Origin: Cetorhinus maximus | Lineage: Eukaryota | Direction of reading: 5' to 3' | Length of the DNA stretch: 64,000 nt | Assembly (NCBI RefSeq): GCF_964194155.1 | Contig: NW_027596259.1 | Coordinates: 248,001 to 312,000 of the forward strand | In this document: positions 1 through 64,000 of the stretch, piece by piece | Layout: each line of letters begins with the position of its first letter | Numbering within the stretch: position 1 is the first letter of the stretch | Program-made: the position numbers and the translations under genes | The notes under the pieces: model-generated | The model's input: only the letters and a program-made list of their open reading frames with translations | Databases searched by the model: none | What the model was told of the DNA's origin: nothing

Positions 1-829
1 TGGATGGACATGGGTTCTGATCCACAGTAAAGGAGTCACACCACTCCAGAGCCATGGAACCCCTCACAGATACAGAGCGGAGAACTAAAACCTAAACTAA
101 AAGTTGTAGCTGAATGGTGAAAAATACTCACCTCTTAAACAATTTCAGTTTTCAATTTTAAAATCTCCTGCTAGAGCCTGCAGCTGGAAAGACATCAGAA
201 GCACTGGAATCAGAGAAAAATCTCCCAGTTGAGGAAATACCCAGGGAGCGGGGTGATGTCACCGTGTAATTGTCGATTTGTGATGATGTCACACACATGG
301 ACACAGAACATCTGGGTCTGTACAAACCAGTGATCACCACACATTATGAAGGATGGAAGGGTCCTGAGGTTTATATGAGGTAGATAAAGAAAAACTATTT
401 TCGTTAACTGATCGTAAAAGGGTTACGGGAGACAGTTTAAAGATTTTGTGAAGATCTACAAGGGGGATATGAGGAAAAAAGTTCACACAGTGAGCGATGA
501 CCTGGAAGTCAATGCTTATACTCAGAGACCGATAATATCCAGGTCCGGATGAATGAAGTGATTCTTGCAGACTCTGATGTGATGATTGATTTGAATTTCC
601 AATCTGCAAAACCTCATCTTCTTGTATCCTGTAAATGGAATTTACAAAATCCATCACTGTCAGTGCAGGATAGAAATTGAGAAGAGACAAACGTTTCTCT
701 TGGTTTGAGTTTGCTGTGTATAAATCCTCCCCTTCTAACCCCCTGTAAAAGGAGTTTCCAAAATCCATCCCTGTCAGTTCAGGATAGAATTTCACAACAT
801 TCTTTCCTCCTGCTACCTGGACCAGGATG

Positions 830-1210
830 ACCGCGCATGCGCCCTGCTGCACATTGCCCCCTATAAAGATGGCGGCCGTTACCCCGGGCCTGGCGAAGGG
901 AGAAATCCAGACTTTTTCGGCCCGTTCTCTGCAAACACAAGACCGGTACCTTGTTATTTGGGGTCTGCGGCCTGCACTGTATCTTTATGAAGCCTCCCTG
1001 CCCACTCCGCTGGCTCCATTCCTCCTCACACACTCACTAACTCTCCACTCGACATTCTCTCACCCTCTCCGGGCAGCTTTAGTCACTGACCAGCACTGCG
1101 CATGCTCATGAAAGAGACAGCAATACACATGCTCCAAGCACACATCGCAATGCGCACGTGCGGAGTTGCTGCTGTAATGAGGATAGGGCACATTCTGTCC
1201 CGCAGCGAAT
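830..1210 (-). promoter_or_regulatory. CpG-rich promoter/exon-1 region of ZNF cassette A (gene body runs off the left edge)
   Basis: GCGCATGCGC (NRF1-type) at 833-842 and AAGATGGCGGCC (YY1-type) at 866-877; reverse-complement paralog of 24700-25090 and 51290-51680, which lie upstream of ZNF exons. Confidence 0.65.
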
Positions 1211-2152
1211 GCTGGGTGTCTGCTCCTCCATTGAACCGTAAAATTGTAAAATCGAAACCCAAGTTCAGTCATCAGAATATGATGGGTGTCATAGGGGCCA
1301 GGATATAAAATTGTCGAATCAATTGATACAGCAATTAAAATGCTCTGTATCCGCCATAATTCTCTCCTGGATGTAATGAACAGCAGAACAAACCCCTGTA
1401 CTTAGATCTGAACTCAATGGAGTCTCAGCAGATGGGGTATTTTTCACCATACATGGAACATTTAAACCGTGTCTTGCCAGTAGGAATGCTGTGACTGTGG
1501 ATTAAATCCTTTGAATTTTAAAGTTGGTGTGTTTACTGCTTTGCAAACTAAATAAATTCCTTTGCACACATAAAGTATCTGGATGGTCTCACACTGGCGC
1601 GACTGTGTTGCTGTGTCAGTACTGGGGCAATAGAGTTCCATTTTCAGCTTGTGCACACGAGTTTACTTACACATTTTCAGCTGAAAATTGGGTCTCAAAC
1701 TCTTCTCGTCATGGGTTCCACATTCTTTGCACTAATTAGTTAATGAAAATCAAAATGCTGCAGATGTTGGCTTTCTGAAATGAAAGAAACCAGAAAATTC
1801 TGGAATTCTAAGCAGATCTGATAGCATCTGTGGCGAGAAAAACATATTTTTTTTTCAAGTCTGTAACCTTTCAACACAACTGCACTACATCTGTGCACAA
1901 ATCTGGCAGAACAGGAATGAAAACCAATAACAGGCAAGGCACCAAAAAACTCGAAGGGAGACCCAGCTGTATGACATGGATGTGTCTGCAGTGGGTGGGA
2001 TCAAACTGTTTCCATGTTTCAACAATCAATGTCTCACCTGTTCTTTGAGAAGAGTGAAACTGATAGAGAACAATTGCCATTTCAGTGTTGGCAATTTGAA
2101 GCTTTAACTCGCTGCCTCAGTTTAAGATATCTTGCAGGTTTTGCTTGTGTGA

Positions 2153-2223
2153 GTCTCTGTTGTATGATTGGTAGGCATTTGGTAGGAAACCGGAAGGTTA
2201 GCAGTTTAAGACCATCAGGAACG
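2153..2223 (+). pseudogene. highly degenerate tRNA-Asn copy
   Basis: gtctctgt...accggaaggtt...accatcaggaacg aligns to tRNA-Asn; flanks (1900-2500) are paralogous to those of the 8106 tRNA-Asn. Confidence 0.55.
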
Positions 2224-2439
2224 AAGTCTTTGATGTTTTCTCCCCATCATCATTCATTCCCACACAGTTCTGGGGTGACAATGGGCACTTTAGCTGCAGG
2301 TAAATGTTCGCCAAACGTTGCCAACTCAACTTTTATGCAATGGATTCCCAAACTGACATGTTTTATCATGAATATTCAATTCAAACATAATGAGAAAACA
2401 TTTAGACCTACCATGTACCTACGTCATTTGCAATCTATG

Positions 2440-61020: not shown

Positions 61021-61303
61021 CTCTCTGCTCATTGTTCCAGATTCAGTGCCCAGTCACCTACTAATTCTTTTCTCCTCTCCAGATTCTCTCTCTTCCTGTC
61101 CATAAAGTGGTGACTCAGCCTGTGCGTCAATCCCATTCCTTCACTCTAATTCTACCAAATAATTCAACTCAAAACAACAAATCATCTTTGATGACTTGAT
61201 TAGTCATTTGGATGTTTGGAAAGAATCACCTTTTTTCCCAACTGTGGAGAACAGAAAGTCCAGTGATTAATTCAGAGCTTACTTCTCCCCAGGTCTGTTC
61301 CAA

Positions 61304-61520
61304 CAAGCTGTGTCTATCCGAGTTACATTGATACAGACTTACTCACTCAGTAAGTGATCAGATCTCACTGAACTATGACACAAGCTGTGTCTATCTGAGT
61401 TACATTGATGCAGACTCGCTCACTCAGTAAGTGATCAGATCTCACTGAACTATGACACAAGCTGTGTCTATCTGAGTTACATTCAAACAGACTCAATAAG
61501 TGATCAGGTCTGACTGAATT
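61304..61520. repeat. 77-bp tandem repeat, ~3 copies
   Basis: caagctgtgtctat starts at 61304, 61381 and 61458. Confidence 0.9.
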
Positions 61521-63176
61521 ACAACAACAAATGCAACAACATATATTTATATCGAGCATCTAACATAATACATTGTCCCAAGAAGTTTCACAGGGGCATA
61601 AGGACATATTAGGTCAGATGACCAACTGCTTGGTCAAAGAAGTCAGTTCGAACGAGTGTCTGAAAGGGGGAAAGTGAATTAGAAAGGTGGAGAGATTTAG
61701 GGTGGAAATTCCAGAGCTTAGGGTCCAGGCAGCTGAAGGCCCGGCCACCAATGGTAGAGTGATTAAAACTGGGGATGAAGGACATCTGGTAATGGTGCTC
61801 CATATATGTGGGCCCCATAGCCCAGGCTTGAAGCCAAAATCTGAACTTTGGGTCATAGTTTGACTGTCCCGGGTCTCAGAGAAAAACAATTCCCCAAATA
61901 AACATCTTGAAGGATTTTTGTTTATTGATACCAGAAAAAGTTTGGACCAGTTGAGTCCTCCTGTGTACTCGATGGAGATTGAACTTAACAGAGTTAAAAT
62001 CCTCTGGATTTCAGTGTCAAAACAAGAATATGTTTTGGCAAAAATAAAAATATATACATACTGAAATACTGAACAGCACAAACCTGGAGAAATACACAGC
62101 AGGTCAATCACCATTAAAAAGTGATAAATTAATCGTCACTGTTTCAGGCTCCGCTGGTATTGAATACTCTTCATGACATCATCGCACTGGGACTGGATGA
62201 CATCATCACACTGGGACTGGATGACATCATAAGAGTCCATTGTTTCTTAATGACCCACATCAATAACAAGAGGAAATATTAATAAACCTGAGCACATTAT
62301 CTAGGCTGACACTCCAGGGTGACATTGAGGGACTGCTGCACTGTCAGAGACAGCATCCTTCACATGGAACTTGTGGAGGCTCTGGTCACAATCTTCCAAT
62401 CCTCCTTATATAGTAGTGGTGACAAAGGGCTGACAGATTGTAAATGTTACACCCCTGTTCAAAAACACAGCAATTCCAGGACAATCAGCTTCATATCAGT
62501 TGTGGGGAAAGGCTGGAGACAATAATCTGGGAGAAAATCAATTGGCACTTGGAAAAGTATCGGTTATTTCCAGCATTTTCTGGTTTTAACACTGATACTT
62601 CCCTGGATCCCAAGGCTCTCTGGGAGGTGTGGGGAGCTGGGACGTATCCATGAGAGTAACCAAAGGTCTGAGAACTGAAAGAATCTAGAGTTAAGAGAGG
62701 AGAAAGGATCCAAAAAGGGAGCCATTAGGAACAGGACATCAATCAGTCTCCTCTTATCCTGGAGAAATCAAGGACTCGACATTCTGAGAGTTTGAAACAA
62801 AGCTGATTTATTTAACAGACTTCAAGATATTAAACTTCAGCCCAGTTACAGGGATTATGAACAGCAATAGAAACAAACCAAAACTGTCAGAATGAACACA
62901 GTTCAGTTCTGGATGTGATTAACAGCAGCAATAACAGCAGAATCCAACCCCTGCTGTCACTTGTGAACTCGCTGGTGTCTGAGCAGGTGGGATGACTAAG
63001 TGAATCCCTTCCTACATTCGGAGAAGGTGAACAGCATCTCCCCAGTATGAACTCGCTAGTGTGTCAACAGGTTGGATAAATGAGTGAATCCCTTTCCACA
63101 CTCGGAGCAGGTGAACACTCTCTCTCCAATGTGAATTCACTGGTGTACACTGAGGTGGAATGAAGGCTGAATCTCT

Positions 63177-64000
63177 TTACACAGGAAGTGCAGCGGGATG
63201 GCCTCTCCTTGTGTGAATTCGCTGGTGTTTCAGCAGGGTGGATAACAGAGTGAATTTCTTCCCACACTCAGAGCAGGTGAATGGTCTCTCTCCAGTGTGA
63301 ATTCGCTGGTGTCTCAGCAGGGTGGATAACAGAGTGAATCCCTTCCCACACTCAGAGCAGGTGAATGGTCTCTCTCCAGTGTGAATTCGCTGGTGTCTCA
63401 GCAGGGTGGATAACAGAGTGAATCCCTTCCCACACTCAGAGCAGGTGAATGGTCTCTCTCCAGTGTGAATTCGCTGGTGTCTCAGCAGGGTGGATAACAG
63501 AGTGAATCCCTTCCCACACTCAGAGCAGGTGAATGGTCTCTCTCCAGTGTGAATTCGCTGGTGTCTCAGCAGGCTTGATGACTGAGTGAATCCCTTCCCA
63601 CACTCGGAGCAGGTGAAAGGCCTCTCTCCAGTGTGAATTCGCTGGTGCACTTTGAGGGTCGATGAAGTCCTGAATCTCTTTCTACAGGAAGGACAACTGA
63701 ATGGCCTCTCCTCAGTGTGAATTCGCTGGTGCTTCAGCAGGTTAGAGGACCCAGTGAATCCTTTCCCACATACCGTGCAGGTGAATGGTCTCTCTCCAGT
63801 GTGAACGAGCTGGTGTGTCAGCAGGTATGATGACTGAGTGAATCCCTTCCCACACTCGGAGCAGGTGAATGGTCTTTCCCCTGTGTGAATTCGTTGGTGT
63901 GTCAGCAGGGTGGATAACTGAGTAAATCCCTTCCCACACTTGGAGCAGGTGAATGGTCTCTCTCCAGTGTGAACTCGCTGGTGTGTCAGCAGGTGGGATA
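63177..64000 (-). CDS. C2H2 zinc-finger gene G, 5'-partial (open from the window edge, >=9 complete fingers, then a frameshift; decayed fingers continue to ~62958)
   Basis: frame is open from 64000 to 63177; [21 protein letters not shown] fingers are paralogous to gene E. Confidence 0.85.
63211..63546 (-). repeat. 84-bp finger minisatellite, 4 units (3 identical)
   Basis: units start at 63211, 63295, 63379 and 63463. Confidence 0.95.

What the first reader, a model, noticed from the sequence alone, without database searches (positions are those of the whole stretch)
130..64000. Modular cassette that spawns effector-less C2H2 zinc-finger genes
Seen: seven cassettes built from shared parts, namely a fossil upstream block, an NRF1/YY1/CCAAT CpG promoter, a GG|GTAAC donor, a ~120-bp acceptor module, ATG immediately before the finger array, and a common 3'UTR. 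No KRAB, SCAN or BTB exon is visible, and the upstream exons look non-coding. Known: tetrapod KRAB-ZNF clusters evolve by birth-and-death and target TEs through KRAB/TRIM28. Inference: this is a parallel, effector-less, fast-turnover ZNF repertoire in a TE-dense locus, with intact (D, E), shrinking (F), expanding (G) and dead (B, B', C, 34-36 kb) members side by side.
Basis: partly seen in the sequence, partly recalled or inferred. Interest (0 to 1): 0.7.

Follow-up and report, generated by a model that had tools for sequence, protein, structure and literature searches.

The report
Block-copied finger-only shark zinc-finger genes
This window is one copy of a multi-gene block repeated along a shark chromosome that holds an estimated few thousand zinc-finger genes; their proteins are predicted to be DNA-binding fingers with no silencing domain, and they likely track fast-changing DNA such as transposons, though no target is known.

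Summary
The shared parts are real, but they belong to ordinary paralogous genes and not to a self-spawning cassette. At least 65 kb, transposons included, recurs collinearly on contig C24 at 80-99.9% identity in patches. A 3'UTR 20-mer occurs 1,059 times; sampling suggests about 2,900 arrays on C24.
Effector-less is supported. In 23 of 26 sampled genes an in-frame stop lies inside the finger exon above the ATG. The acceptor module evolves as non-coding DNA. No conserved N-terminal domain was found.
Corrections: a probable RNA contig of a D relative splices at AG|GTGAGT (38,580) and not at GG|GTAAC, so the YY1/NRF1 block is intronic there. The upstream fossil is a decayed zinc-finger 3' end.
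Birth-and-death is shown: B is dead here and intact in a sister block. Structural residues are under purifying selection; contact residues run at or above neutral in older pairs only. Transposon targeting is untested.
Shark ZNF counts are published (Wells 2023 supplement), and this scan has reported the family before on other DNA.

The parts
500..1200 (-). Gene A 5' part: NRF1-like promoter block, YY1/NRF1 block, two tandem acceptor modules; its finger exon most likely lies just left of the window (L011, broken)
1330..1500 (-). Fossil upstream block of A: decayed last finger plus 3'UTR of a dead same-strand ZNF neighbour (approximate limits)
   Evidence: likeness to finger end and 3'UTR read from the alignment by eye
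18480..18640 (+). Fossil upstream block of B (copies also near 24,400-24,560 and 51,000-51,150)
   Evidence: 40 of 40 scored genome copies 95-100% identical
18780..19420 (+). Gene B promoter-like block (NRF1 at 19,112; no YY1, no GGGTAAC) and two acceptor modules
20186..20527 (-). Antisense LINE 3' fragment in the intron of B; homologous pieces at 28,403-28,973, 43,660-44,330, 57,860-58,645. L2 clade is a recalled label
   Evidence: one search matches to 31,029-31,717, which follows an RT-like motif
20921..21865 (+). Gene B finger array, dead: TGA at 20,993 in finger 1 and a frameshift near 21,795; intact 13-finger sister in L113
23340..23920 (+). B': heavily decayed finger array
24750..25240 (+). 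Gene C promoter-like block with GGGTAAC, YY1 (25,041), NRF1 (25,075), acceptor module
29257..30225 (+). Gene C finger exon (acceptor before 29,257, ATG 29,354), dead: frameshift after finger 2
34001..34295 (-). Finger and 3'UTR fragment
36002..36480 (-). Dead finger array with several stops
36957..38081 (-). Gene D CDS, 374 aa, 13 fingers, class I start [13 protein letters not shown]; 3'UTR motif at 36,938
   Evidence: 27 copies at 95-100%
38082..38177 (-). D exon 2 leader (acceptor module) with in-frame TGA 24 codons above the ATG, present in 27 of 27 copies
38178..38579 (-). D intron 1 (GT-AG), holding the GGGTA(T/A)C site, YY1 (38,418), NRF1 (38,384) and a skipped partial acceptor module (38,340-38,243)
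   Evidence: joint 38,582 to 38,178 in a contig of a D relative
38580..38752 (-). D non-coding exon 1 and CCAAT/GC-box promoter region (start site not defined)
42151..42825 (-). Gene E CDS, 224 aa, 8 fingers, class II start MEKPWKC
42826..43190 (-). E leader: acceptor module followed by three fossil fingers with stops and an (AC)n run
46380..46800 (-). Predicted E promoter (CCAAT, GC boxes, YY1 twice); link to E inferred, not shown by RNA
51350..51850 (+). Gene F promoter-like block with YY1, NRF1, acceptor module
59082..59475 (+). Gene F finger exon, ATG 59,191, 94 aa, 2 intact fingers and 1 Cys-to-Tyr finger
62960..64000 (-). Gene G array (start and acceptor in L012); 11 fingers in frame, three identical 84-bp units, frameshift near 63,180 kills the last fingers

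Best explanation
The window is one copy of a multi-gene block from a chromosome-wide shark and ray family of C2H2 genes whose proteins are predicted to be finger arrays alone, likely multiplied by unequal exchange between blocks and likely selected to read changing DNA targets such as transposons. Shown: whole blocks with their introns and old transposon insertions recur along C24 in patchwork identity; the same gene is intact in one block and dead in another; in-frame stops inside the finger exon cut most reading frames off from any upstream exon; the leader evolves as non-coding DNA; structural finger residues are under strong purifying selection. Shown for a D relative only: a non-coding exon 1 spliced to the acceptor module. 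Inferred: all members descend from one founder layout (hence the shared parts); unequal crossover and conversion make the patchwork; the proteins bind DNA and act by occupying sites or by recruiting a cofactor through the fingers themselves. Untested: targets, repression, expression of the window's own copies.
For: Block copying: 43.8 kb at 99.8% to C24:47.99-48.03 Mb and about 65 kb collinear with C24:51.26-51.33 Mb; identity per 2 kb to that block swings between 80 and 99.7%; D copies and B-upstream copies lie 19-22 kb apart in opposite orientation at 12 or more places read off. Scale: 1,059 exact 20-mers, 96 of the first 100 listed on C24 and 4 on C1-C23; 46 of 46 matches of two longer patterns on C24 or small contigs; 7 arrays in 16 evenly spaced 10-kb samples, about 2,900 on 65 Mb. 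No effector: stop inside the exon in 23 of 26 de-duplicated genes with a module (4 more had none in range); 28 of 41 module copies stopped in the ATG frame, 22 of 28 distinct indels non-triplet, divergence equal at the three codon positions, pN/pS 0.73 against 0.80 and 0.84 in the other frames; 39 hits to a module profile in 1.84 billion proteins, and where the 25 N-termini tested resemble each other they mostly map back to intron or promoter DNA; 0 of 17 elasmobranch long homologues carry KRAB, SCAN or BTB; best KRAB hits on C34, the one read looks PRDM9-like (recalled), none on C24; 0 of 150 scored SCAN hits on C24. Splicing. Selection: pN/pS 0.59 in the D clade and 0.42 in nine other clusters, structural sites 0.05; contact positions dN/dS 1.30 and 1.77 in older pair bins against 0.02-0.64 for structural, linker and other finger sites, with helix position 2 at 0.48 and 0.92.
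Against: Contact residues are not positively selected among the youngest duplicates (pN/pS 0.30-0.48). In the strict test (6 pairs, mutual-best fingers) contact dN/dS is 1.16-1.86 and its bootstrap interval includes 1 for two of three kappa values. The consensus module reads open for 36 codons in the ATG frame and 3 of 26 genes were open across the acceptor, so some members could take an upstream coding exon. The RNA evidence is assembled contigs from runs only guessed to be RNA, about 90% identical to D, so not the window's copy; exons of A, B, C, E, F, G were not defined. A short unmodelled domain like FiNZ would escape Pfam. The 99.9% match to C24:48.0 Mb may be a second haplotype or assembly duplicate. 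8 of 27 D copies are already broken.
Confidence: 0.7

Rival explanations
1. Mostly passive bloom: a recombination-prone chromosome amplifies blocks, only a minority of genes work, and contact-site diversity reflects relaxed constraint rather than a chase of transposons.
For: Many dead copies (window; 8 of 27 D copies); strict contact dN/dS not clearly above 1; youngest pairs show no excess contact change.
Against: Structural residues dN/dS 0.02-0.15 in every bin; contact sites change 4-5 times faster than other finger sites; family-wide cover in probable RNA runs of four studies.
Confidence: 0.17
2. A subset carries a short unrecognised N-terminal domain on an upstream exon spliced through the open module, as FiNZ does in cyprinids, and that subset does the silencing.
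For: Open consensus frame; 3 of 26 genes open across the acceptor; contigs diverge upstream of the acceptor with unlike sequences (42 contigs).
Against: No codon-position or indel signature; no shared non-genomic N-terminus among public predictions; D's exon 1 cannot be in frame.
Confidence: 0.08
3. One reading: a single-gene cassette is the mobile unit that spawns new genes.
For: Shared parts recur; 4 of the first 100 listed 3'UTR matches lie singly on other large contigs.
Against: Copies keep introns, intronic LINE fossils and neighbours over tens of kb; near-confinement to one chromosome.
Confidence: 0.04

Closest known systems
FiNZ-ZNF family of cyprinid fish, zebrafish chr 4q (Wells et al. 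2023, PMC10547256; two opening parts, Discussion, passages and supplement rows read)
   Same: Hundreds of lineage-specific tandem C2H2 genes concentrated on one chromosome region; upstream exon plus one finger exon; variable contact residues.
   Different: FiNZ genes carry a conserved 28-aa coding exon; here the upstream exon is non-coding and stops insulate the frame. Repression of transposons was shown for FiNZ genes and is untested here.
KRAB-ZNF clusters of sarcopterygians (as summarised in PMC10547256 and PMC10380595, passages read)
   Same: Tandem arrays with TGEKP-type linkers, birth-and-death, segmental duplication, finger gain and loss.
   Different: No KRAB on C24 among scored candidates; no route to TRIM28 known.
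Chondrichthyan ZNF ORF counts (PMC10547256 supplement file 2) and automatic 'zinc finger protein 239/271/850-like' names
   Same: 475-3,586 ORFs with five or more fingers counted in eight cartilaginous fish assemblies; named relatives of the module come from five shark genera, long finger homologues also from rays.
   Different: Counts and names only; gene layout, lack of an effector and block duplication are not described in the passages I read.
Zinc-finger genes around elasmobranch MHC-Ia-like genes (PMC10751288, one passage read)
   Same: Multiple zinc-finger gene copies in shark and ray genomes.
   Different: MHC class I matches lie on C22 (37 of 39) and none on C24, so this is a different cluster.

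Membership tests
Tandem (poly) C2H2 ZNF genes | Five or more C2H2 fingers in one ORF with canonical linkers | tested here: met
   D 13, E 8, G 11 fingers; Pfam zf-C2H2
Tandem (poly) C2H2 ZNF genes | Highest variability at helix positions -1, 3, 6 with conserved framework | tested here: met
   Entropy 3.2, 3.4, 3.0 bits over 408 fingers; one beta-hairpin position is as high (3.1)
KRAB-ZNF | N-terminal KRAB-A exon | tested here: not met
KRAB-ZNF | TRIM28 recruitment and heterochromatin at bound transposons | not testable with these tools
   no binding data
SCAN- or BTB-ZNF | N-terminal SCAN or BTB domain | tested here: not met
   no match in 113 upstream ORFs; 0 of 150 scored SCAN hits on C24, 4,987 candidates not all scored; BTB not searched genome-wide
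FiNZ-ZNF | Conserved short acidic coding exon upstream, in frame with the fingers | tested here: not met
   in-frame stop inside the finger exon in 23 of 26 genes; module non-coding; no FiNZ profile was run
FiNZ-ZNF | Positive selection at base-contacting residues | tested here: inconclusive
   dN/dS 0.30, 1.30, 1.77 by divergence bin; strict test 1.16-1.86 with wide intervals
FiNZ-ZNF | Expression at genome activation; knockdown derepresses transposons | not testable with these tools
   only unlabelled contigs available
Mobile or retroposed cassette | Single-gene copies, dispersed, introns lost or precise ends | tested here: not met
   multi-gene collinear blocks with introns, nearly all listed copies on C24; ends not searched

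The most novel reading that the evidence does not exclude
Sharks and rays run a third vertebrate zinc-finger defence, founded by a decapitated gene whose old coding linker survives as the 5' leader, amplified in multi-gene blocks to thousands of copies on one dedicated chromosome, and silencing transposons with no effector domain, by site occlusion or a finger-borne cofactor contact.
Probability: 0.3. Interest if true: 0.75.

Novelty: new variant of a known kind. Interest (0 to 1): 0.45.

Why it matters
Large ZNF families are thought to police transposons through an attached domain (KRAB, FiNZ). A family of thousands under purifying selection with no such domain tests whether DNA binding alone is enough, which bears on the open question of what metazoan ZNF expansions are for. 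The block structure gives matched live and dead copies of one gene (B, D) for measuring turnover. The kind of system is known, shark counts are published, and function is unshown, which caps the score.

Tried and rejected
Laying contigs on 36.4-47.3 kb was swamped by repeats and gave no usable splice joints. No listed holder is on record as RNA: no evidence either way on expression of the window's copies. Module as a coding domain: rejected. GG|GTAAC as D's donor: not supported. My first guess that the fossil upstream block was a transposase or the LINE fragment: rejected after alignment. MHC linkage: rejected. Positive selection among recent D copies: not found. Hits P0023, P0031 and P0038 were set aside as chance (repeat or non-finger proteins; P0038 not read). 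Literature searches listed no paper describing this family's layout; the library lacks most subscription papers, PMC3205565 was not held, and supplement files 3-5 of PMC10547256 were not searched, so absence from print is not established. No structure, complex or binding-site prediction was run.
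Full report
What is there. A six-frame scan finds C2H2 arrays at 21.0, 29.4, 37.0, 42.2, 59.2 and 63.0 kb and remnants at 23.4, 34.1 and 36.2 kb. B has a stop in finger 1 and a late frameshift; C shifts frame after finger 2; F is a 94-aa ORF; G holds three identical 84-bp units and a frameshift before its last fingers. The acceptor module has 15 matches in the window and the 3'UTR motif follows five arrays.

Corrections to the anatomy. In run X2 a 321-nt contig covers 38,752-38,582 and then 38,178-38,048; a second joint from the same donor appears in X2 and X6. 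This is a GT-AG intron from AG|GTGAGT at 38,580 to the second module. The contig is about 90% identical and carries gaps like the 15-17-bp insertion found in 25 of the 26 other D copies, so it comes from a relative, and its run is only guessed to be RNA. The donor G|GT(G/A)AGT is present in 27 of 27 D copies, GG|GTAAC in 11 of 27. The YY1/NRF1 block and the first, partial module therefore lie in intron 1 of D. In the four runs 42 contigs stop matching at the module's acceptor and go on with unlike sequence, as expected if paralogues splice different first exons onto it. The fossil upstream block aligns among A, B, C, F and reads by eye as the last finger plus 3'UTR of a dead neighbour. LINE pieces sit antisense in the introns and sense behind the 3'UTRs; the L2 label is recalled.

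Is it effector-less? Among sampled genes there are two starts: MEGKSTVH directly after the module, and MEKPWKC after three fossil fingers. In 23 of 26 de-duplicated genes with a module in range an in-frame stop lies between acceptor and ATG; in D it is present in 27 of 27 copies. The module's consensus is open for 36 codons in the ATG frame, but 28 of 41 copies are stopped, 22 of 28 indels are non-triplet and codon positions diverge equally. It is non-coding now and possibly a fossil linker (inference). A module profile over 1.84 billion proteins gave 39 hits; all ten looked up are shark proteins, and shared N-terminal pieces mostly map back to intron or promoter DNA. Pfam found no KRAB, SCAN or BTB in 113 upstream ORFs or 14 of those proteins. 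None of 17 elasmobranch long homologues carries one, while many tetrapod hits do. Genome-wide, KRAB matches were three on C34 and a weak one on C22 (150 of 152 scored); the one read resembles PRDM9's KRAB (recalled). Most intact-looking ORFs end at the last finger, so there is no C-terminal domain either.

How it multiplies. D's 5' region has 27 full-length matches among the 40 candidates scored, of 3,977. The extended window matches C24:47.99-48.03 Mb at 99.8% over 43.8 kb and is collinear over about 65 kb with C24:51.26-51.33 Mb, transposons included. Identity to that block swings between 80% and 99.7% in 2-kb steps, and the near-identical copy drops from 99.9% to 94% after 44 kb. This patchwork is what repeated unequal exchange or conversion would leave (inference); the 99.9% copy could also be a second haplotype. 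B is dead here and intact with 13 fingers in L113; 19 of 27 D copies keep a 372-374-aa frame. G's triple repeat is absent from two sister copies. Seven arrays in 16 evenly spaced 10-kb samples give about 2,900 on C24 (a Poisson range of roughly 1,100-5,900 is my own estimate). MHC class I lies on C22.

Selection. Overall pN/pS is 0.59 in the D clade and 0.42 in nine other clusters, with structural sites at 0.05. Contact positions -1, 3, 6 give dN/dS 0.30, 1.30 and 1.77 in pairs of 95-99.5%, 88-95% and 82-88% identity (13, 10 and 16 pairs). With mutual-best fingers only (6 pairs) the value is 1.16-1.86 against 0.25-0.40 elsewhere, with intervals that include 1 for kappa 1 and 3. The proteins matter and their specificity diversifies; positive selection is suggested, not shown. 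Searches were prompted by earlier scan notes.

What is known. Wells et al. 2023 (PMC10547256; two opening parts, Discussion, passages, supplement rows, two parts of the code file) count 475-3,586 ZNF ORFs in eight cartilaginous fish assemblies and tabulated ZNF-rich chromosomes including sharks in their code, but the main text has no occurrence of shark or cartilaginous. The whale shark paper notes loss of KRAB families in cartilaginous fish (PMC8455134, passages). Seven searches listed no description of this family's layout. This scan has 29 earlier notes with the same words in at least six genomes; they are leads, not support.

Verdict. Real, and a lineage-specific variant of a known kind of system. 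The additions here are the splice evidence that moves the donor, the quantitative test that the module is non-coding, and block-level duplication with matched live and dead copies. Function remains inferred.

Noticed in passing
window 4527-4600 and 8106-8179: tRNA-Lys(CTT) and tRNA-Asn(GTT) genes inside the duplicated block; a third ARAGORN call at 14,536-14,629 is not supported by Rfam.
   Followed up: partly
L054, L062, L063, L066, L067, L068; L012: Acceptor modules in head-to-head pairs about 2.7-6 kb apart, suggesting shared two-way promoters.
   Followed up: no
window 42,826-43,190 and many sampled loci: Class II genes keep three fossil fingers with shared TGA stops and several upstream ATGs in the leader, including a short MFVCSVCG-type uORF that may tune translation.
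   Followed up: partly
G000:C34:9.12-9.40 Mb (L070-L072): Three KRAB exons, the one read PRDM9-like by recall: possibly a small PRDM9 cluster.
   Followed up: partly
G000, many contigs: 4,987 SCAN-like candidates; the 150 scored are spread over the large contigs with none on C24. Likely Gypsy-type retrotransposon capsid domains (recalled).
   Followed up: no
window 46,149-46,238 and 60,773-60,943: Orphan acceptor modules: one inverted inside E's predicted intron, one on the minus strand with no finger array behind it.
   Followed up: no
window 39,452-39,868 and 62,147-62,566; 38,652-38,983 and 46,721-47,043: Young local copies: a 420-bp inverted pair at 94.5% and a 330-bp block at 92.5% shared upstream of the D and E promoters.
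   Followed up: no
public homologues: Many long homologues in one other shark lie on a single 59.5-Mb contig, and two ray homologues on 58-60-Mb contigs, hinting at a conserved ZNF chromosome.
   Followed up: no
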